Source: Minisyncoccota bacterium
GTDB lineage: Bacteria; Patescibacteriota; Minisyncoccia; Phycocordibacterales; BOKC01
Assembly (NCBI GenBank): GCA_030583745.1
Contig: CP129473.1
Span: 530-64,529 of the forward strand
Length of the DNA stretch: 64,000 bases
Direction: 5' to 3'
How positions within the stretch are numbered: the stretch's first letter is position 1; each line of letters opens with the position of its first letter. Both the position numbers and the translations under genes were made by a program. The notes beneath the pieces were generated by a model. That model was not told the DNA's origin. It did not search any database and saw only the letters and a program-made list of their open reading frames with translations. This document shows positions 10,525-36,037 of the stretch, piece after piece.

Positions 10525-10603
10525 GCGCTAGGAAATTAGGCACTAGGCGCTAGGGAAATTCCTAAAGCCCAAGACCTAACAACCTAAAACCTATACTCTA
10601 TAA

Positions 10604-12274
<1,671 letters not shown>

Positions 12275-30066: not shown

Positions 30067-31029
30067 ATGAAAATTTATGTGACGAGAAAAATTCCCGAAG
30101 CAGGAATAAGTCTTTTAAAAGATAAGGGTTATGAAATTGATGTCAGCCCGCATGACAGAGTGTTGGAAAAATCGGAGTTGATTTCCGCTCTGAAACAAAA
30201 GCCGTATGAGGCGGTTTTGTGTCTTTTAACCGACAAAATTGACGCGGAAGTTTTTGATGCTGTTCCGACAGCCAAAATTTTTGCCAATTATGCTGTCGGA
30301 TTTAATAATATTGATATTGAAGAAGCAAAAAAGCGCGGGATTGTTATAACCAATACGCCAGATGTTTTAACCGACTCTGTTGCCGAGCACACCTTTGCTT
30401 TAGTTATGGCAATTGCTCACCGAATTGTTGAAGCCGACCAATTTGTTCGCGATGGAAAATATGTCGGCTGGGCGCCGGAGCTTCTACTCGGCGCGGATAT
30501 TAAAGGTAAGACCTTGGGAATTTTAGGCGCAGGTAGAATCGGCTCGCAAGTCGCTTTTCAGGGCAAGAATGGTTTTGGTATGAAAATTGCTTATTACGAC
30601 ATCAAGCCGAATTCTGAAATTGAAAAAGAGTTTGGAGCAACCTTTTATCCGTCAGTGGAAGGATTACTTGCTGTTGCCGACTTTGTTTCGCTTCACGTGC
30701 CACTTTTGGATTCAACTCGGCATTTGATAAATGCCGACCGCTTGCGGAAAATGAAAAAAACCGCCTATCTCATAAACACCTCGCGCGGACCGGTGGTGGA
30801 TGAAAAAGCGCTTTTTGAAGCGCTTCGCGACGGGGTAATTGCCGGCGCCGCTCTGGACGTTTTTGAAGAAGAGCCAAAAGTTTATCCGGGGCTAGAAAAA
30901 CTGCAGAATGTTATTTTAACTCCTCACATCGCTTCGGCTACTTTTGAAACTCGTTCCAAAATGTCTGAAATGGCTGCCGAAAATATCATCACCTTTTTTG
31001 AAGGTCAAGAACCGCCGAATGTGGTCTAG
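30067..31029 (+). CDS. D-isomer-specific 2-hydroxyacid dehydrogenase (glyoxylate/hydroxypyruvate reductase-like)
   Basis: GILGAGRIG NAD motif. Conserved catalytic Arg/Glu/His in a formate/glycerate dehydrogenase-like fold. Start taken at MKIYVTRK. Confidence 0.85.
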   Translation: MKIYVTRKIPEAGISLLKDKGYEIDVSPHDRVLEKSELISALKQKPYEAVLCLLTDKIDAEVFDAVPTAKIFANYAVGFNNIDIEEAKKRGIVITNTPDVLTDSVAEHTFALVMAIAHRIVEADQFVRDGKYVGWAPELLLGADIKGKTLGILGAGRIGSQVAFQGKNGFGMKIAYYDIKPNSEIEKEFGATFYPSVEGLLAVADFVSLHVPLLDSTRHLINADRLRKMKKTAYLINTSRGPVVDEKALFEALRDGVIAGAALDVFEEEPKVYPGLEKLQNVILTPHIASATFETRSKMSEMAAENIITFFEGQEPPNVV

Positions 31030-31280
31030 GCGCTAGGTTTTTAGGCTCTAGGGTCTAGCCAATAGGGTTTAGGGCGTAGTCCGCCTCCGCCAGTTGACGG
31101 AGGCGGCTTGGCTGGAAAAGCCCTTATCGGGTATTCTATGAGTTAACGGGTGTTGAACTTTGGGGTTGAATTTACCTACGCGAGTATTGACATATTTATT
31201 AAAATATGATAGGTATATTAACGGAATTCACAGGGTGTTCCTGTGGAAGTTCTTCGTTAGCTTGCTGAAAGGAGCAAAGC

Positions 31281-31946
31281 ATGAAGCCTCGTACAGTTCG
31301 GGTCCTCTGCAGGGGTATTTCGCCCATTCTCATGGACCAGATGACAGAGGAGACCCTCGACAGCCTCGCAACCAGCGTCCGGCAGAACAAACCCAAGGAC
31401 AGACCGTTTGCGGATGTCGCGGAGGAGAAAATCTACCGCGACCCTATGACAGAGCGCATCGGCATCCCCTCGGAGATGCTCTTCGCTTGTTTGGTCGCAG
31501 CGGGCCGGAAGGTCAAGAACGGCAAGAGCCAGATCTCCACAGCAACCTCCTCGACCGTTCCGGACTTTCTCGAGATCCCCGACTTTTTCTTTCCGTTTCT
31601 CGGCATCCCCGAGAACGTGGAGCCGCGATCGGAAGACGAGAGGCAGCACTGGAAGGTGGATAAGAGACGAGGGCGTCTGCCCATCAACGGAACCGCTGTC
31701 TGCCTCATCCGTCCCCGCTTCAACAACTGGGAATTCAAGGTCACAGTGATCTACGATGCCGACAAGATCGATGGTTCTACGCTGAAGGCTCTCTTTGTGA
31801 ATGCCGGCAGTGGCCAAGGTCTTGGTTCGTTCCGCCCCAACTGCAGGGGTACCTTCGGGAAGTTCGTTGTCGTTTCTTGGGAGGAGACGGCCGGCGCTGT
31901 GAAGGAGGACGAGACGGAAGAGACGGACGTTCTCGCGGCTGCATGA
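31281..31946 (+). CDS. Hypothetical 221-aa protein with a C-terminal glycine-rich loop (possibly RAMP/Cas6- or Cas7-like). Unverified.
   Basis: Strong SD (aaaggag, 6 nt before the ATG). GC-rich with good coding periodicity. Segment FVNAGSGQGLGSFRPNCRGTFGKF is reminiscent of RAMP glycine-rich loops. Terminator at 32007..32045. Overlapping antisense ORFs are treated as spurious. Confidence 0.5.
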   Translation: MKPRTVRVLCRGISPILMDQMTEETLDSLATSVRQNKPKDRPFADVAEEKIYRDPMTERIGIPSEMLFACLVAAGRKVKNGKSQISTATSSTVPDFLEIPDFFFPFLGIPENVEPRSEDERQHWKVDKRRGRLPINGTAVCLIRPRFNNWEFKVTVIYDADKIDGSTLKALFVNAGSGQGLGSFRPNCRGTFGKFVVVSWEETAGAVKEDETEETDVLAAA

Positions 31947-32006
31947 CTGTGTGAAGTCAAGTCCAGCATCCTGGACTATACTCTAGTTAAGTACGCTCGC
32001 GTGCTC

Positions 32007-32045
32007 AAACCCCGTCGCTTCACCGTGGCGGGGTTTCTTTTCTAA
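32007..32045 (+). terminator. Intrinsic terminator after the 221-aa gene
   Basis: Stem aaaccccg/cggggttt followed by tttcttttct. Confidence 0.7.
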
Positions 32046-32134
32046 ACATCCAACGGTTTATACTACAGTCAAGTAGAGTCTAGCAAGGTAGGGTTAGGTC
32101 GAGTGCAATAGAGTTCAGTAGTTCAGTATAGAGT

Positions 32135-32681
32135 GAAGTTGCTAAAAAGTAACTTTGCTAATTAGAGGAGGTTAAAATTGTAGTGACGTGTAGTTCTGTT
32201 CCGTCGTCTGCGGTGGGGTGAAGTATACGGCAGAATCTTCGAAAGGGGATTCTGTCAATTATATATCGTGTCGTCCACTACAGTGCAGTTCGGCAAAGTT
32301 AGGTACGGTGGTCAGGTGGCGATTTTCGAGAGAAAGCCGCCACCTCTTTGCTTTCGGTGCGGTGTTTTGGGGTCCAATACCATGAACTATTGTGCAACAA
32401 GAGTCTTCGAAAGGAGATTTTACTGTTTTTAACTACAGCTCCCCAGACTACTCTTAGGTAGTGTTGCCTGACGCAAGGTATAGTGCAGGGCAGAATCTTC
32501 GAAAGGAGATTCTGTCGCTTTCTTCAGTGGAGTTAAGTTACCTCCCGTCGCGTATAGTCCACTACACGTCAGAATATCTGAAAAGATATTCTGACATTTC
32601 CTTGGTCTGTAGCAACCTGCAGTAAGGTGGGCTCCAGTATAGTTTAGTTCAGGTTAGAATCACTGAAAAGTGCTTCTAACA
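32135..32681 (+). repeat. Array 1: seven non-identical hairpins about 80-97 nt apart, capped by GNRA tetraloops (6x GAAA/GAGA, one AAAA)
   Basis: Hairpins: 32135-32156, 32231-32254 (cagaatcttc GAAA ggggattctg), 32315-32344 (..GAGA..), 32399-32421, 32491-32514, 32570-32593 and 32653-32680. Stems differ but keep pairing through compensatory and G.U changes that only pair on the + strand RNA. Motifs ACUACAG and GUAUAG recur between hairpins. Confidence 0.7.
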
Positions 32682-32744
32682 CTTACGATTTAGGTGGTGT
32701 GTAGTTCACTTAAGTAGACTCCAGCAAGCTACAGTATTGTACAC

Positions 32745-32785
32745 AACCCGCTTCGTCTTAAATGGTGAAGCGGGTTTTTGTTTGA
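32745..32785 (+). terminator. Intrinsic terminator closing array 1
   Basis: Stem aacccgcttc/gaagcgggtt followed by tttgtttg. Confidence 0.75.
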
Positions 32786-32872
32786 CAAGATCCAAAAAAT
32801 ATGTATTCTTGTTACTGGAAGTTCATTGTGAACTTGCACCATCTGAAACATCTGGAATATTGGAGATCAAGA

Positions 32873-34741
32873 ATGACAACAGAAACGAGAAAAAGAGGCG
32901 CTCTGAACTTGGAACGCCTTGCGGGAAACTTCCCAAGCCGATTCTCAAGAATGAGAGTTGCGCAGGAAGAAGCACTCAAATTCGTGGCAGAAAACGGCTC
33001 AAGCATTGTCGAAGCACCAACAGGGTCGGGAAAGACTGCGATTGAGATTGCCATTCTACGCGCTGGACAAGAGGTGGGAATGGAAACTCTCTTCCTCATC
33101 GTTCCCAACAAGACGATCCTCGGACAAATCAGAGAAGAGTTTCCAGGTGATGTGAAAGTCGCATTGGGACGAAACGAGCATCCGTGTCTCTACTACGAGG
33201 AGAAGAAGACAGAGATTACAGTTGAAGGAGTCAGGCTTCTGTCAGATGATCCTGAAAGCATCAAAGCGGATGAGATTCCGTGCTCGATGCTTCTTGATTG
33301 TCCGCATCGAGTTGACCAGGAAACTGGAGAGACTCACACAAAGGGTGCCTTCCCGTGCCCTTACCTTCAGCAAAAGTACGAGGCCAAACAGGGCGGTATC
33401 GTGCTTTGCACGATGTCTTTCTATCTCTTCACACAACTTTTCAGCAGAGAGTGGGAACGGCCGAATATCTTGGTGATCGATGAAGCACATCGCATCGCCG
33501 AGGTCTTTCGAAACGCTCTGTCCTACGAAATCTCTGATCACCACATCGAGAAGGCGGTAGGAATCCTCAAGCTCATTGGAGCAGGAGAAGAATCGACAGC
33601 GCTGGAGTTGTTTCTCAAGAAGATGATTAGAATCATCAAGGGGAAATCCAGAGGGAAGCTGCCTCTCCTCGAACCAGAGGAGCTCTACACCTTGATAGAG
33701 ACGCTATCACTTATCGACACCAAGGAGTTGGGAAAGAAGGTGAGTGGCGCGGTCAAGGAAGGCAAGCTTAACGCCAAGGCAGACAGAACAACGCTTCGCA
33801 AGCTCGAGGTGCTGATTCGAGACTTGAAGCGCTACATTCGATCTTTTGAGTTCTCTATGCCGGCTTCCAACCGACATGCTCTCAACTACACCTACGCCAC
33901 CTGGCGCGAAGAAAAGCAAAAGGGTCAGAAAGTCCAGTACCAACTGGTCATCAAGGCCTACTATGTCGCCCCGCTCATCAAGAAAGTGATGGGCGATACG
34001 ACGGTCTCTTTTTCCGCCACCATTGGCGATCCGGATGTCTTTGGTTTCGAAACCGGAATCAGAGATCCGTTCGTTAGCTTGGGCGGACACTTTCCAGCCA
34101 ACAACACCAGAATCTTTATGCCCTCGGACACTCCGAATCTGGCTATGAATGCCAGGTCAAATCAGGAGCCAACCAGGGTTCTGCGTCGGATCGCCAAGGC
34201 CTGCAAGCGATTTTCCCAAAAGGGAATTCGTTCGCTGGTCGTGGTAGTTTCCAATGCAGAGCGAGACAAATTCCTAATGCTCGCGGAAGAAGAAGACGTC
34301 TATGCTATAAGCTACGGCAACGGAGTCACCGCAAGGGATGCCGCCCAACTCTTCAAGGGAGGAGAAGGTGATGTTCTCGTTGGCACTGCCTCAAACTACG
34401 CTGAAGGTGTTGATCTTCCAAAGAATCTGGCACCGGTCATCTTCGTCCTCCGACCCGGATATCCGAATCCAAAGGACCCGGGCACAATCTTTGAGGAGAA
34501 GAGATTTGGTAGTCAGCGCTGGCAGATCTGGAACTGGAGGGTGATGCTTCAGGCTCTTCAGGCTCGAGGCAGAAACCTGCGAAGCGTCAACGATATCGGC
34601 GTGACTATCTTCATCTCCCAGCAGTTTAGGCGATTTGTTTTCGCATCTCTGCCGGAGAGTCTGAAGGAGTCATATGTTCGTGACAAGACCTTCGATGAGT
34701 GTGTCAATAGTACTCTTGAACACCTGAATAGAGTCCTGTAG
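32873..34741 (+). CDS. DinG/XPD (Rad3)-family SF2 DEAH helicase with a 4-Cys (putative Fe-S) insertion
   Basis: Walker A is EAPTGSGKT and motif II is VIDEAHR. Four Cys lie between motifs I and II (HPC, IPC, DCPH, FPCPY). The C-terminal helicase motif LVGTASNYAEGVDLP is DinG-like. SD GGAG precedes the ATG at 32873. An alternative start is at 32801. Confidence 0.75.
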   Translation: MTTETRKRGALNLERLAGNFPSRFSRMRVAQEEALKFVAENGSSIVEAPTGSGKTAIEIAILRAGQEVGMETLFLIVPNKTILGQIREEFPGDVKVALGRNEHPCLYYEEKKTEITVEGVRLLSDDPESIKADEIPCSMLLDCPHRVDQETGETHTKGAFPCPYLQQKYEAKQGGIVLCTMSFYLFTQLFSREWERPNILVIDEAHRIAEVFRNALSYEISDHHIEKAVGILKLIGAGEESTALELFLKKMIRIIKGKSRGKLPLLEPEELYTLIETLSLIDTKELGKKVSGAVKEGKLNAKADRTTLRKLEVLIRDLKRYIRSFEFSMPASNRHALNYTYATWREEKQKGQKVQYQLVIKAYYVAPLIKKVMGDTTVSFSATIGDPDVFGFETGIRDPFVSLGGHFPANNTRIFMPSDTPNLAMNARSNQEPTRVLRRIAKACKRFSQKGIRSLVVVVSNAERDKFLMLAEEEDVYAISYGNGVTARDAAQLFKGGEGDVLVGTASNYAEGVDLPKNLAPVIFVLRPGYPNPKDPGTIFEEKRFGSQRWQIWNWRVMLQALQARGRNLRSVNDIGVTIFISQQFRRFVFASLPESLKESYVRDKTFDECVNSTLEHLNRVL

Positions 34742-34799
34742 CCTACAGTTTGGTGCGCCAAGTTATTCTAGCGTTTTCTAGAGTCGGGTTCACTACACA

Positions 34800-34835
34800 A
34801 GCGTTCCGAGTAAAATCGGGACGCTTTTTTGTTTG
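34800..34835 (+). terminator. Intrinsic terminator after the helicase
   Basis: Stem agcgttccg/cgggacgct with a G.U pair, followed by ttttttgtttg. Confidence 0.7.
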
Positions 34836-34946
34836 TTATTCCTTTTTTATAAAAAATATGTTATAAAAGTTTTTGGCTTGTTCTTTATAGTTACCTAAAC
34901 CATTCTTTTCTGCGGTGCACTGCCGTATCCTTTCGTGCCCTATAGA

Positions 34947-35243
34947 TCCAGATCCTCGAAAGAGGTTCTGGATAATTTCAGTTACCTCATGTTCTGTACG
35001 GTATGCTGTCGTAACCTTCTCTGAAGGTCTAAACTCCTGAAAGGGGGTTTAGACGATTTTCCAGTAAAGTTCGGCTCAATAACGTAGCACTTACTAAGAT
35101 GCAGGACAGATAAGACAGAGATGTTTTATCTTGTCATTACCAGACTGGTTAGATACAGTGAGGTTAGGTGTCGTGAAGTTGAGTTTAGTCATCTGAAGTC
35201 GTCTGGACTATACGACAGCAGAGATTGAAAAATCTTTGCTGTC
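34947..35243 (+). repeat. Array 2: four or more GNRA-capped hairpins (GAAA, GAAA, GAGA, GAAA) at about 80-110 nt spacing
   Basis: Hairpins: 34947-34972, 35027-35054, 35108-35131 and 35214-35243. The upstream (GUAUAG-like) and CUACAG motifs are the same as in array 1. Confidence 0.65.
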
Positions 35244-35319
35244 ATTGCTCCCTACCCTATACCACTCTTCACTACAGTGTATCCCGGTGTTCTCAAGTGG
35301 TTTTCAGTTAAGTACACAA

Positions 35320-35350
35320 GCTCCGCTTCGGCGGGGCTTTTCTATTGATT
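35320..35350 (+). terminator. Intrinsic terminator closing array 2 (UUCG tetraloop)
   Basis: gctccgc ttcg gcggggc followed by ttttctattgatttt. Confidence 0.7.
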
Positions 35351-35371
35351 TTCAAATAAAATTATGCGACA

Positions 35372-36037
35372 ATGGCAATTATGCTGACTTTAGAAACTAA
35401 AATTCGTAATAAAAAAGGCAATCAAACTCTTCGTAAAGAAGGGTGGATGCCGGCGGTTTTTTATGGCAAGAAAGAGCCAGCCACAGCTATTGCTGTTGAT
35501 TCTGTTGCTTTCGGCAAGGTTTTGAAAGAAGCTGGTGAGTCATCCGTCGTAATATTAGAGACCGAAAGTGGCCAGAAGCAGGCATTGATAAAAGATGTTC
35601 AATTTGACCCAGTAACTGACACACCGAGACACGCAGATTTTTATGTTTTTGAAAAAGGTCATAAGCTAGAAGTTGACGTTCCGCTTGTGTTTGAGGGCGT
35701 TTCGCCTGCTGTTAAAGAGCTTGGTGGAATTTTAGTTAAAGTTTTGCACGAACTTAAAATCAGAGCTATGCCGAAGGATTTACCGCATGAAATAAAAATT
35801 GATATTTCCACACTTAAAGATTTTGAAAGTCAGATATTAGCCAAAGACATAAAGTTGCCGGAGGGCGTTGAGCTTCTTGAAGGACCAGAGGAAGTCATAG
35901 CGCTTACAGAGGAAGCTAAAGAAGAAATTGAGGAAGAAGTTGTCGCGCCTGATTTGTCTTCGATTGAAGTTGAAAAGAAAGGCAAGAAGGAAGAGGAACC
36001 TTCTCCTGAAAGCGGTGGAACAGCAGAAGAGAAATAA
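35372..36037 (+). CDS. rplY: Ribosomal protein L25 / general stress protein Ctc, with an acidic C-terminal tail
   Basis: N-terminal L25 fold sequence (LETKIRNKKGNQTLRKEGWMPAVFYG). Confidence 0.85.
   Translation: MAIMLTLETKIRNKKGNQTLRKEGWMPAVFYGKKEPATAIAVDSVAFGKVLKEAGESSVVILETESGQKQALIKDVQFDPVTDTPRHADFYVFEKGHKLEVDVPLVFEGVSPAVKELGGILVKVLHELKIRAMPKDLPHEIKIDISTLKDFESQILAKDIKLPEGVELLEGPEEVIALTEEAKEEIEEEVVAPDLSSIEVEKKGKKEEEPSPESGGTAEEK

What the first reader, a model, noticed from the sequence alone, without database searches (positions are those of the whole stretch)
32873..34741. Stand-alone DinG/XPD-type helicase with a 4-Cys insertion in a non-housekeeping context
The protein has Walker A APTGSGKT and DEAH box VIDEAHR. 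Four cysteines lie between motifs I and II, at the position of the Fe-S domain in XPD/DinG. A DinG-like C-terminal motif (LVGTASNYAEGVDLP) is also present. At about 620 aa it is short and lacks the N-terminal exonuclease domain of some DinG proteins. Stand-alone DinG-like helicases are accessory components of type IV-A CRISPR-Cas and several anti-phage systems. Here the only partners are the small glycine-loop protein and the hairpin RNAs.
Basis: partly seen in the sequence, partly recalled or inferred. Interest (0 to 1): 0.7.

Follow-up and report, generated by a model that had tools for sequence, protein, structure and literature searches.

The report
Helicase partner of a VIPR system
The helicase is real, and it is the accessory enzyme of a VIPR system, a recently described CRISPR-like RNA-guided DNA-recognition system made of a small RAMP protein and pentanucleotide-repeat guide RNAs, here in a helicase-bearing form found widely in Patescibacteria whose mode of action has not been studied.

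Summary
Window 32873-34741(+) encodes a 622-aa XPD/DinG-fold SF2 helicase with Walker A, DEAH and four family-conserved cysteines; one aligns with Fe-S ligand C190 of human XPD. It is not stand-alone. The upstream 221-aa "glycine-loop" protein (31281-31946) is a Vipr RAMP: its family profile hits the solved SUSP1 Vipr at E=1.4e-10, and its model has a Cas7/Csm3 fold. The "hairpin RNAs" are about 13-14 candidate vrRNAs. Each has 7-13 pentamer units (T/C-N-N-a-G/C) followed by a 12-bp GAAA hairpin or an intrinsic terminator. In the 64-kb window such tracts occur only in this locus and only on the gene strand. The hairpins show compensatory changes at 11 of 12 pairs. In 51 related Patescibacteria loci, 48 pair this helicase with a Vipr gene, and no other gene family is shared. 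Vipr relatives on 56 viral contigs never carry the helicase. The locus is therefore a VIPR system (two bioRxiv preprints, 2026) with a helicase accessory gene, a class those preprints mention but did not characterise. I infer that the helicase acts at vrRNA-bound DNA, much as CasDinG does in type IV-A CRISPR. No vrRNA targets were found. I rate it a new member of a known kind, of moderate interest.

The parts
31281..31946 (+). vipr gene. It encodes a 221-aa RAMP protein with an RRM core and the glycine-rich loop GLGSFRPNCRGTFGKF.
   Evidence: There is no Pfam, PADLOC or NCBIfam hit. PHROG 4652 matches at 1e-17. The family profile hits PDB 36pp 'SUSP1 Vipr protein' at E=1.4e-10. The AF2 model has pLDDT 89, and its best Foldseek matches are Csm3/Cas7 of type III and type VII CRISPR at E about 1e-7. 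Invariant R144, F184, R185 and P186 align with SUSP1 R138, W178, R179 and P180.
31952..32036 (+). Candidate vrRNA in the 3' UTR of vipr. It has 11 pentamer units (31952-32006) and an intrinsic-terminator hairpin as its tail (32007-32036).
   Evidence: Unit frame. Terminator. It is nearly identical in the relative L052.
32064..32776 (+). vrRNA array 1. Its units are: tract 32064-32118 (tail atypical); tract 32179-32228 with hairpin H1 32229-32256; degenerate hairpin H2 32397-32424; 32429-32488 with H3 32489-32516; 32518-32567 with H4 32568-32595; 32603-32652 with H5 32653-32680; and 32695-32744 with terminator 32745-32776.
   Evidence: Pentamer tracts are found only in this locus and only on the + strand. 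Frames and logo. Hairpins. Hairpin covariation. Terminator. No Rfam family matches convincingly.
32782..32809 (+). Promoter-like site (TTGACA, 16-nt spacer, TATTCT) upstream of the helicase gene.
   Evidence: This is a consensus match only, 10 of 12 positions. It is conserved in L052.
32873..34741 (+). Accessory (vap-type) helicase. It is a 622-aa XPD/DinG-fold SF2 helicase with four conserved Cys (C105, C137, C143, C162).
   Evidence: Domain and family hits. Cysteine conservation. PDB sequence and structure matches. It is linked to vipr in 48 of 51 loci.
34744..34826 (+). Candidate vrRNA in the 3' UTR of the helicase gene. It has 11 pentamer units (34744-34798) and a terminator hairpin (34799-34826).
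   Evidence: Arrays also start right after the helicase stop codon in L005 and L016.
34911..35339 (+). vrRNA array 2. Its units are: 34911-34945 with H6 34946-34973; 34977-35026 with H7 35027-35054; 35060-35104 with the imperfect hairpin H8 35105-35135; 35149-35213 with H9 35214-35243; and 35273-35317 with terminator 35318-35339.
   Evidence: The H9 unit and the H6 tail are conserved in L052, while the H6 tract has changed at the variable positions.
31030..35371 (.). Extent of the module. It is an island of 0.45-0.48 GC in a genome of about 0.40 GC, lying between the 2-hydroxyacid dehydrogenase gene and the ribosomal protein L25 gene.
   Evidence: Composition. The same position is occupied in the relative L052. 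The flanks are not conserved in the other 51 loci.

Best explanation
The helicase is the accessory enzyme of a chromosomal VIPR (Viral Interference Programmable Repeat) system in a Paceibacterota (Patescibacteria/CPR) bacterium. The module has four transcription units on one strand: vipr with one vrRNA in its 3' UTR, an array of about 6 vrRNAs, the helicase with one vrRNA in its 3' UTR, and an array of 5 vrRNAs. By homology with the solved SUSP1 system, Vipr protomers should polymerise along each vrRNA at one protomer per pentamer. They would sequester the conserved bases and present the variable dinucleotides, which then pair with double-stranded DNA while skipping every third target base, forming an 'R-loop triplex'. 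The 3' hairpin or terminator would cap the filament. I infer that the XPD/DinG-type Fe-S helicase is recruited to the bound target and translocates 5'->3' on DNA. This would turn static binding into interference by unwinding DNA and displacing polymerases or the replisome, as CasDinG does for type IV-A CRISPR complexes. No nuclease is encoded in the locus. What is shown: the identity of both proteins, the RNA architecture, and the obligate gene linkage. What is inferred: RNA expression, filament formation, the identity of the targets, and the role and timing of the helicase. The confidence of 0.75 is a blend: about 0.9 that this is a VIPR module with a helicase accessory, and about 0.45 that the helicase acts on target DNA as described.
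For: The family profile of the small protein hits the SUSP1 Vipr structure at E=1.4e-10, with the thumb Arg and the G-loop aromatic-Arg-Pro aligned, and its model has a Cas7/Csm3-like fold. Tracts of 5 or more NNRGY pentamers occur in the 64-kb window only in 32065-32735 and 35145-35313, and only on the + strand. Over 133 units, position 1 is T 91% / C 9%, positions 2-3 are near uniform, position 4 is A 52%, and position 5 is G 62% / C 32%. Eight GAAA hairpins are 95.8% paired against 68% in shuffles, and 11 of 12 pairs show compensatory changes. Four strong intrinsic terminators partition the locus. In 51 loci found through the helicase, 48 contain a Vipr ORF. In those loci 96 tracts lie on the helicase strand against 5 on the other strand, which equals the shuffle level, and 93 of the 96 lie beside the helicase. 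The helicase and Vipr are the only conserved gene families in these loci. The helicase has a DinG/XPD/CasDinG fold, conserved cysteines, and C162 aligned to XPD C190. The preprints state that VIPR loci consist of vipr plus one vap gene flanked by vrRNA-bearing intergenic regions, that repeats may be YNNGG, NNNGG, YNNNG or NNNNG, and that types III-V have nuclease or helicase vaps (10.64898/2026.04.26.720920). They also state that the role of helicase vaps is unknown (10.64898/2026.04.26.720927).
Against: No target was found for any vrRNA under the published 1-nt-skip rule. The window plus 51 loci gave nothing better than shuffled guides. Seven distinct patterns were scanned for exact matches in eight scans, six of viral contigs and two of metagenome contigs, and none gave a hit. 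The repeat consensus is weaker than the published GGY. Between this locus and its closest relative, positions 2-5 all vary (21-28%) and only the pyrimidine is fixed, so the code in this clade may differ. The G-loop Asp that reads the first G in SUSP1 is Ser here. In the solved VIPR complex the non-target strand is held inside the filament, so where an XPD-like helicase would load is unclear. RNA expression, Fe-S binding and helicase polarity are untested. I could not see the preprint's figures, so assignment to one of its seven types is by elimination only.
Confidence: 0.75

Rival explanations
1. The helicase works on the RNP rather than on the target. It would help assemble, process or recycle Vipr-vrRNA filaments, for example by stripping filaments from DNA or RNA, or by resolving the long hairpins during array processing.
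For: The solved VIPR ternary complex encloses both DNA strands, which leaves no obvious loading strand. Arrays with 12-bp hairpins and no ribozyme or Cas6-like gene still need some processing route. Helicase-free viral Vipr relatives exist, so the helicase is not needed for basic VIPR function.
Against: XPD/DinG-family enzymes are DNA 5'->3' helicases by established family knowledge. The closest analogous enzyme, CasDinG, acts on target DNA. The preprint classes helicase vaps with the predicted DNA-acting enzymes.
Confidence: 0.12
2. The module is a minimal or degenerate type IV CRISPR-Cas system, with a Cas7 (Csf2)-like protein, CasDinG, and a decayed CRISPR array whose repeats are the hairpins.
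For: The PADLOC model typeIV_DinG PDLC01439 matches over its full length at E=1.6e-37. The small protein has a Cas7-like fold. Hairpins recur every 79-85 nt. CasDinG structures are significant Foldseek matches.
Against: There is no Csf1, Csf3, Cas6 or Cas1 gene, and no other conserved gene in 52 loci. The 'repeats' keep their structure but not their sequence. The 'spacers' are themselves pentamer repeats with a pyrimidine every 5 nt. NCBIfam cas_csf4 scores 19.5 bits against a cut-off of 400. No CasDinG appears in the sequence-profile PDB search at E<=1e-3, whereas XPD scores 2e-17. From my own knowledge rather than from any test here, CasDinG lacks the Fe-S cysteines, and here they are conserved. 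The small protein matches Vipr by sequence.
Confidence: 0.04
3. The helicase is the cell's ordinary XPD/DinG-type repair helicase, and its position next to vipr has no functional meaning.
For: The flanking genes are housekeeping and the position is conserved in a close relative. The family is widespread in Patescibacteria, with more than 500 homologues at 50-60% identity, and sources annotate it as a Rad3-related helicase.
Against: Of 51 loci, 48 keep Vipr within 6 kb while every other neighbour differs. vrRNA tracts begin directly after the helicase stop codon. The module has a higher GC content than its surroundings. All NCBIfam DinG, YoaA and Rad3 models score far below their cut-offs.
Confidence: 0.03
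4. The identity is the same (VIPR plus helicase), but the natural role is control of host or resident-element genes rather than anti-phage defence. This would be programmable silencing in a small-genome symbiont. This rival concerns the biological role only and is compatible with the best explanation's identification of the parts.
For: The characterised VIPR systems act by transcriptional repression. The locus is stably inherited at one chromosomal site between two species. Some vrRNAs (post-vipr, H9) are conserved between those species. There are no viral matches.
Against: No self-match beats the controls in 64 kb plus 51 loci. Other vrRNA units turn over quickly between relatives, as guides do in an arms race. 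Only 64 kb of the genome could be searched.
Confidence: 0.12

Closest known systems
VIPR systems (Viral Interference Programmable Repeat), bioRxiv 10.64898/2026.04.26.720920 and 10.64898/2026.04.26.720927. The characterised examples are type II (phage SUSP1 and a Pseudomonas fulva prophage).
   Same: It has a Vipr-family RAMP detectable by sequence, with conserved thumb Arg and G-loop aromatic-Arg-Pro. Its RNAs are tandem pentamers with a fixed pyrimidine and variable dinucleotides, followed by a structured 3' tail, and lie upstream and downstream of the genes. It is a two-gene locus with no CRISPR array and no cas genes.
   Different: The accessory gene is an XPD/DinG helicase, not the predicted DNA-binding Vap1. 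The repeat is T-N-N-a-G/C rather than YNNGG. The tail is a simple 12-bp GAAA hairpin or an intrinsic terminator rather than a pseudoknot. The host is a chromosome of Patescibacteria rather than a phage. The identity of the window protein to SUSP1 Vipr was not computed; only the C-terminal half aligns (profile positions 33-191), and detection needs a family profile.
[quoted passage not shown] By elimination this is probably type IV, because types III and V are called the only nuclease-encoding types.
   Same: It combines Vipr, vrRNAs and a helicase vap. Like the cellular types III and V that the preprint describes as repurposed, this locus is chromosomal.
   Different: I could not see the figures or data tables, so I cannot confirm that this Patescibacteria clade, its XPD-like Fe-S helicase or its repeat consensus is what the authors classified. 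No experiment on any helicase type is reported.
Type IV-A CRISPR-Cas (Csf complex with CasDinG/Csf4)
   Same: A Cas7-like RAMP filament on a guide RNA works with a DinG-family helicase, with no nuclease and no adaptation genes. Interference is non-nucleolytic. CasDinG structures match the model at E about 1e-18, and one PADLOC typeIV_DinG profile matches over its full length.
   Different: There is no Csf1, Csf3 or Cas6 gene and no CRISPR array. The guides are gapped pentamer repeats. The Fe-S cysteines are retained. The cas_csf4 equivalog scores far below its cut-off.
Archaeal and eukaryotic XPD/Rad3, and bacterial DinG
   Same: It has the full four-domain fold (HD1, Fe-S, Arch, HD2) at TM 0.64-0.69, Walker A and DEAH motifs, and four Cys, with C162 aligned to XPD C190. 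The best sequence-profile matches are XPD at 2e-17.
   Different: Identity is only 13-17%. It is not part of TFIIH or a repair operon. It is obligately linked to Vipr and vrRNAs. It has no N-terminal exonuclease domain.

Membership tests
VIPR system | A Vipr protein: a single-RRM RAMP with a G-loop and a thumb, homologous to the characterised Vipr. | tested here: met
   The family profile hits PDB 36pp SUSP1 Vipr at E=1.4e-10. The AF2 model (pLDDT 89) has Csm3/Cas7 as its best Foldseek matches. The conserved motif is GLGxFRPxxxGxFGRF.
VIPR system | Conservation of the residues that hold the conserved repeat bases in SUSP1 (R138, D177, W178, R179). | tested here: inconclusive
   R144, F184 and R185 are invariant and align with R138, W178 and R179. 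D177 aligns with S183 in the window protein, and is Asp in many relatives. H17 could not be aligned.
VIPR system | vrRNAs made of about 9-16 tandem pentanucleotide units with conserved scaffold bases alternating with variable NN (YNNGG or a related consensus). | tested here: met
   There are 13 tracts of 7-13 units, only in this locus and only on the + strand. Position 1 is a pyrimidine in 133 of 133 units, though I chose the unit frames by that base. Positions 2-3 are near uniform. The consensus is weaker than the published one (a at 52%, G/C at 94%). The same kind of tracts flank the helicase in related loci, 96 on the helicase strand against 5 on the other.
VIPR system | A structured, conserved 3' tail that caps each repeat tract. 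| tested here: met
   The tail is a 12-bp GAAA hairpin with compensatory changes at 11 of 12 pairs, or an intrinsic-terminator hairpin. L005 and L016 have longer hairpin tails that differ in sequence between copies while keeping complementary arms, seen by inspection only. The published type II tail is a pseudoknot instead.
VIPR system | A minimal locus of vipr plus one accessory (vap) gene flanked by long intergenic regions, with no CRISPR array or cas genes. | tested here: met
   Only two gene families are conserved across 52 loci.
VIPR system | vrRNAs are expressed and co-purify with Vipr. | not testable with these tools
   This needs small-RNA sequencing and pull-down.
VIPR system | DNA targets match the NN dinucleotides with one skipped base per unit. 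| tested here: inconclusive
   No match beats shuffled guides in 648 kb. There were no exact hits in viral or metagenome collections for seven distinct patterns in eight scans. Only exact matching was possible in the collections.
XPD/DinG (Rad3-like) Fe-S SF2 helicases | Helicase motifs I and II, and the two RecA-like domains. | tested here: met
   APTGSGKT and VIDEAHR are present. Pfam DEAD, ResIII, DEAD_2 and Helicase_C_2 all score above their cut-offs.
XPD/DinG (Rad3-like) Fe-S SF2 helicases | Four Cys ligands of a 4Fe-4S cluster inserted in HD1. | tested here: met
   C105, C143 and C162 are invariant and C137 is at least 90% conserved in 24 sequences. C162 aligns with XPD C190. Cluster binding itself is untested.
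XPD/DinG (Rad3-like) Fe-S SF2 helicases | The overall four-domain fold, including the Arch domain. | tested here: met
   Foldseek matches DinG 6fws at 1e-25 and XPD 9p55/5h8w/4a15 at about 1e-23, with TM 0.64-0.69.
XPD/DinG (Rad3-like) Fe-S SF2 helicases | ATP-dependent 5'->3' DNA unwinding. | not testable with these tools
   This needs a biochemical assay.
Type IV-A CRISPR-Cas (CasDinG/Csf4) | The effector genes csf1, csf2, csf3 and cas6/csf5 are present. | tested here: not met
   PADLOC and NCBIfam give no such hits for the neighbouring protein. No further conserved genes exist.
Type IV-A CRISPR-Cas (CasDinG/Csf4) | A CRISPR array of sequence-conserved repeats and unique spacers. | tested here: not met
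   The hairpins conserve structure but not sequence, and the intervening sequence is itself a pentamer repeat.
Type IV-A CRISPR-Cas (CasDinG/Csf4) | The helicase belongs to the Csf4 family. | tested here: inconclusive
   NCBIfam cas_csf4 scores 19.5 bits against a cut-off of 400. No CasDinG appears in the PDB profile search. However, PADLOC typeIV_DinG PDLC01439 matches over its full length at 1.6e-37, and CasDinG folds match at about 1e-18.
Housekeeping bacterial DinG/YoaA | The equivalog model scores above its cut-off, and the gene has conserved repair-gene synteny. | tested here: not met
   DinG scores 30-36 bits against cut-offs of 598-789, and YoaA scores 37.5 against 680. The only conserved synteny is with Vipr.

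The most novel reading that the evidence does not exclude
This Patescibacteria clade may be a VIPR variant that the seven published types do not cover. Its features would be a relaxed repeat in which only the pyrimidine is fixed, so the read-out may involve more or other bases than NN with a 1-nt skip; guides embedded in the 3' UTRs of the protein genes with terminators serving as tails; and an XPD-like Fe-S helicase as the effector. That would make it the closest living analogue of a pre-CRISPR stage of type IV systems (RAMP filament plus DinG-family helicase).
Probability: 0.2. Interest if true: 0.8.

Novelty: new member of a known kind. Interest (0 to 1): 0.5.

Why it matters
VIPR was described only in 2026, and only its binding and repression mode has been studied. 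The preprints state that how helicase or nuclease accessories read a VIPR-bound target is unknown. This locus and its relatives give a compact, well-delimited test case: two genes and about 14 guides in 4.3 kb. The linkage is close to obligate (48 of 51 loci), while helicase-free viral cousins provide a contrast (0 of 56). About 350 clusters at 50% identity match the Vipr profile at E<=1e-30. Two open questions could be tested directly. One is whether a DinG/XPD helicase turns RNA-guided binding into interference without a nuclease, in parallel to type IV-A CRISPR. The other is whether the recognition code tolerates a much weaker scaffold than GGY. It also adds an RNA-guided system to Patescibacteria, which from my own knowledge are reported to carry few CRISPR-Cas systems.

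Tried and rejected
1. Rfam scan of 30500-35800 at E<=1. It gave only a sub-threshold GcvB match (23 bits against 42) and a miRNA match. There is no ribozyme or known RNA family.

2. [quoted passage not shown] Exact scans of viral contigs (H1, tract A, H5, H9 conserved core, post-vipr conserved core, H7) and of metagenome contigs (H9 core, H3) all gave 0 hits. The collection scans allow only exact matches, so this negative result is weak.

3. Phage homologues.
   - tblastn of the Vipr protein against 50,697 phage records found no match.
   - The helicase matches only a Rad3-like helicase of Tenacibaculum phages PTm1 and PTm5 (28% identity over 35% of the query). That locus has no Vipr-profile ORF, so this lead ended there.

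4. Mobile-element signs. I found no integrase, and the flanking direct or inverted repeats are unconvincing. Two other samples carry an identical locus.

5. Type IV CRISPR and housekeeping DinG readings. Both are rejected on the membership tests above.

6. Preprint classification. The supplement held as text does not mention helicase, DinG or Patescibacteria, so the VIPR type could not be confirmed.
Full report
**Observation.** Window 32873..34741 (+) encodes a 622-aa protein.
- It carries APTGSGKT, VIDEAHR and LVGTASNYAEGVDLP.
- Pfam DEAD, ResIII, DEAD_2 and Helicase_C_2 all score above their cut-offs.
- Four cysteines lie between motifs I and II. In 24 family members at 52-62% identity to the window protein, C105, C143 and C162 are invariant and C137 is at least 90% conserved.
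- The family profile aligns pCPYlqqky with WCPYFLARY of human XPD. This puts C162 on C190, which is a known Fe-S ligand.
- The AF2 model (pLDDT 85) matches E. coli DinG (1e-25), archaeal and human XPD (about 1e-23 to 1e-20) and CasDinG (about 1e-18) over its full length.
- By sequence profile the nearest solved proteins are XPD (2e-17), CHL1, FANCJ and then DinG (6e-9). No CasDinG appears at E<=1e-3.
- All NCBIfam DinG, YoaA, Rad3 and Csf4 models score far below their cut-offs.
- One PADLOC 'typeIV_DinG' profile (1.6e-37) and PHROG 2488 (8e-40) match over their full length.

**The partner protein.** The 221-aa ORF at 31281..31946 has no Pfam, PADLOC or NCBIfam hit. It does match PHROG 4652.
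- It has 40 word-indexed homologues at 38-100% identity.
- An alignment shows invariant W124-x-x-D127, R144-P145, and G180...F184-R185-P186...G190-x-F192-G193.
- The profile of that alignment hits one solved structure, 36pp 'SUSP1 Vipr protein', at E=1.4e-10. In that alignment RPxFxxW and GxGxWRP....FGRF line up.
- The AF2 model (pLDDT 89) is most similar to Csm3/Cas7 subunits of type III and type VII CRISPR complexes.

The name led to two 2026 preprints.
- The first (10.64898/2026.04.26.720920) describes VIPR systems as a Vipr RAMP, one accessory 'vap' gene, and vrRNAs encoded in the flanking intergenic regions. Each vrRNA has 9-16 YNNGG units followed by a structured tail. The variable NN pair with DNA while skipping every third target base. 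There are seven types. Some use NNNGG, YNNNG or NNNNG repeats, and types III-V carry nuclease or helicase vaps.
- The second (10.64898/2026.04.26.720927) shows one protomer bound per repeat. R138, D177, W178 and R179 hold the GGY bases, and the complex forms an R-loop triplex that encloses the non-target strand. It states that the role of helicase and nuclease accessories is unknown.
- In the window protein, R144, F184 and R185 correspond to R138, W178 and R179. D177 corresponds to S183.

**The RNAs.** A scan for tracts of 5 or more in-phase NNRGY pentamers over the whole 64-kb window, on both strands, found tracts only at 32065-32735 and 35145-35313. All were on the + strand.
- In the T-first frame, 13 tracts of 7-13 units give this logo over 133 units: position 1 T 91% / C 9%; positions 2 and 3 near uniform; position 4 A 52%; position 5 G 62% / C 32%.
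- Each tract ends at one of two kinds of tail. One is a 12-bp hairpin with a GAAA loop. The window has six perfect GAAA hairpins in this locus (five of at least 12 bp and one of 9 bp), plus imperfect ones. The other is one of four strong intrinsic terminators.
- Eight hairpin copies are 95.8% paired, against 68% in shuffles and 38-52% in slid controls. Eleven of 12 pairs show compensatory changes. Structure, not sequence, is therefore conserved.
- The terminators split the module into four units: vipr with an 11-unit tract starting 5 nt after its stop codon; array 1; the helicase with an 11-unit tract starting 2 nt after its stop codon; and array 2.
- Rfam gives no convincing match and finds no ribozyme.

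**Related loci.**
- The helicase has more than 500 homologues, almost all from Patescibacteria MAGs, at 50-60% identity.
- A scan of species-representative genomes returned 51 loci. Of these, 48 contain a Vipr-profile ORF within 6 kb, usually upstream on the same strand. One of the three exceptions is cut off at the contig end.
- Across these 581 kb there are 96 NNRGY tracts of 6 or more units on the helicase strand and 5 on the other strand. Five is also the count for shuffled sequence on both strands. Of the 96 tracts, 93 lie within 3 kb upstream or 2 kb downstream of the helicase.
- L005 and L016 show clear arrays of tract plus long hairpin. The hairpins differ in sequence between copies while keeping complementary arms (by inspection), and the arrays start at the helicase stop codon.
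- All-against-all clustering of ORFs finds only two conserved families, the helicase (52 loci) and Vipr (49 loci). The flanking genes are not shared.
- Searching from the other direction, 56 viral contigs encode Vipr relatives at 26-40% identity, and none has the helicase.
- An exhaustive profile search finds 6,433 clusters at E<=1e-3 and 349 at E<=1e-30.

**Local context.** The module is 0.45-0.48 GC in a genome of about 0.40 GC. It sits between a 2-hydroxyacid dehydrogenase gene and rplY (L25), followed by rpmE, prfA, rpsB and tsf.
- A relative whose helicase is 89% identical has the module at the same site, with an extra 131-aa ORF.
- Some guides are conserved between the two (post-vipr, H9). 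Others have been replaced, and the relative has additional units.
- In orthologous tracts, position 1 changes in 6% of units, positions 2-5 in 21-28%, and the tails in 9%.
- The window has no CRISPR-like tandem array.

**Mechanism.** The gene and RNA anatomy and the linkage are shown. The rest is inferred by homology.
- Vipr filaments would form on each vrRNA and recognise DNA in a gapped manner.
- I further infer, by analogy with CasDinG and from the 5'->3' DNA translocase activity of the XPD/DinG family, that the helicase is recruited to the bound target and converts binding into interference without a nuclease.
- The enclosed non-target strand in the solved complex makes the loading site uncertain. 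A role in RNP assembly or recycling is therefore a live rival.
- No natural target was found, so whether the system serves defence or regulation is open.

**Comparison and verdict.** The locus meets every testable defining feature of VIPR. The exceptions are one inconclusive residue check and the target rule, which could not be verified. It fails the defining features of type IV-A CRISPR and of housekeeping DinG.

Helicase-bearing VIPR types are mentioned in the preprint, so this is a new member of a known kind, not a new kind. I could not confirm which published type it belongs to. Type IV follows only by elimination. Its weak repeat consensus and its terminator and hairpin tails leave room for it to be a distinct variant.

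Interest is moderate. The helicase arm of that system is uncharacterised, and this clade is a good place to study it.

Noticed in passing
L012 4625-5227; L013 7308-7925; L014 8163-8822; L017 4558-5118; L029 5047-5748; L036 4231-4866; L038 7742-8518; L047 9079-9747: Eight of the 51 related loci carry a second, much more divergent Vipr-like ORF, with profile E between 1e-9 and 1e-36 against 1e-45 to 1e-84 for the first copy. This suggests duplication of the RAMP in some helicase-type systems. The window has no second copy.
   Followed up: no
L052 4579-4974 (also L053 and L054 124-432): The closest relative of the window locus has an extra small ORF (131 aa, no Pfam hit) between vrRNA array 1 and the helicase. 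An unrelated-looking 118-aa family sits at the same place in four other loci.
   Followed up: no
window 31971-31981, 35203-35213 and (reverse complement) 32552-32562: The 11-mer CTGGACTATAC occurs in two vrRNA tracts, and its reverse complement occurs in a third. This could be chance, a shared handle, or guide-guide complementarity.
   Followed up: no
window 31827-31829 (Vipr S183) and the loci: The G-loop residue equivalent to SUSP1 D177, which reads the first G of GGY, is Ser in the window and in a subset of relatives. Loci with GLGD[FY]RP have G at that repeat position in 21-69% of units. Loci with GLGSFRP have it in 15-25%. This may be protein-RNA co-variation, but the loci are not phylogenetically independent, and loci with GLCDWRP do not fit the pattern.
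   Followed up: partly
window tracts compared with L052: Between orthologous guides, all of unit positions 2-5 vary (21-28%) and only the pyrimidine is fixed (6%). This differs from the published picture of a fixed GGY and a variable NN.
   Followed up: partly
window 10561-10610 and 52316-52479: A CCTAAAA x7 tandem repeat lies directly upstream of the ORF 10613..12274. A CCACCACC-type repeat of about 160 nt lies inside the ORF 51852..53480.
   Followed up: no
L005, L007, L023, L032 (record titles): Some contigs carrying this Patescibacteria-type module are labelled Woesearchaeota, Aenigmatarchaeota or Gammaproteobacteria in their MAG records. This is probably mis-binning, but horizontal transfer was not excluded.
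   Followed up: no
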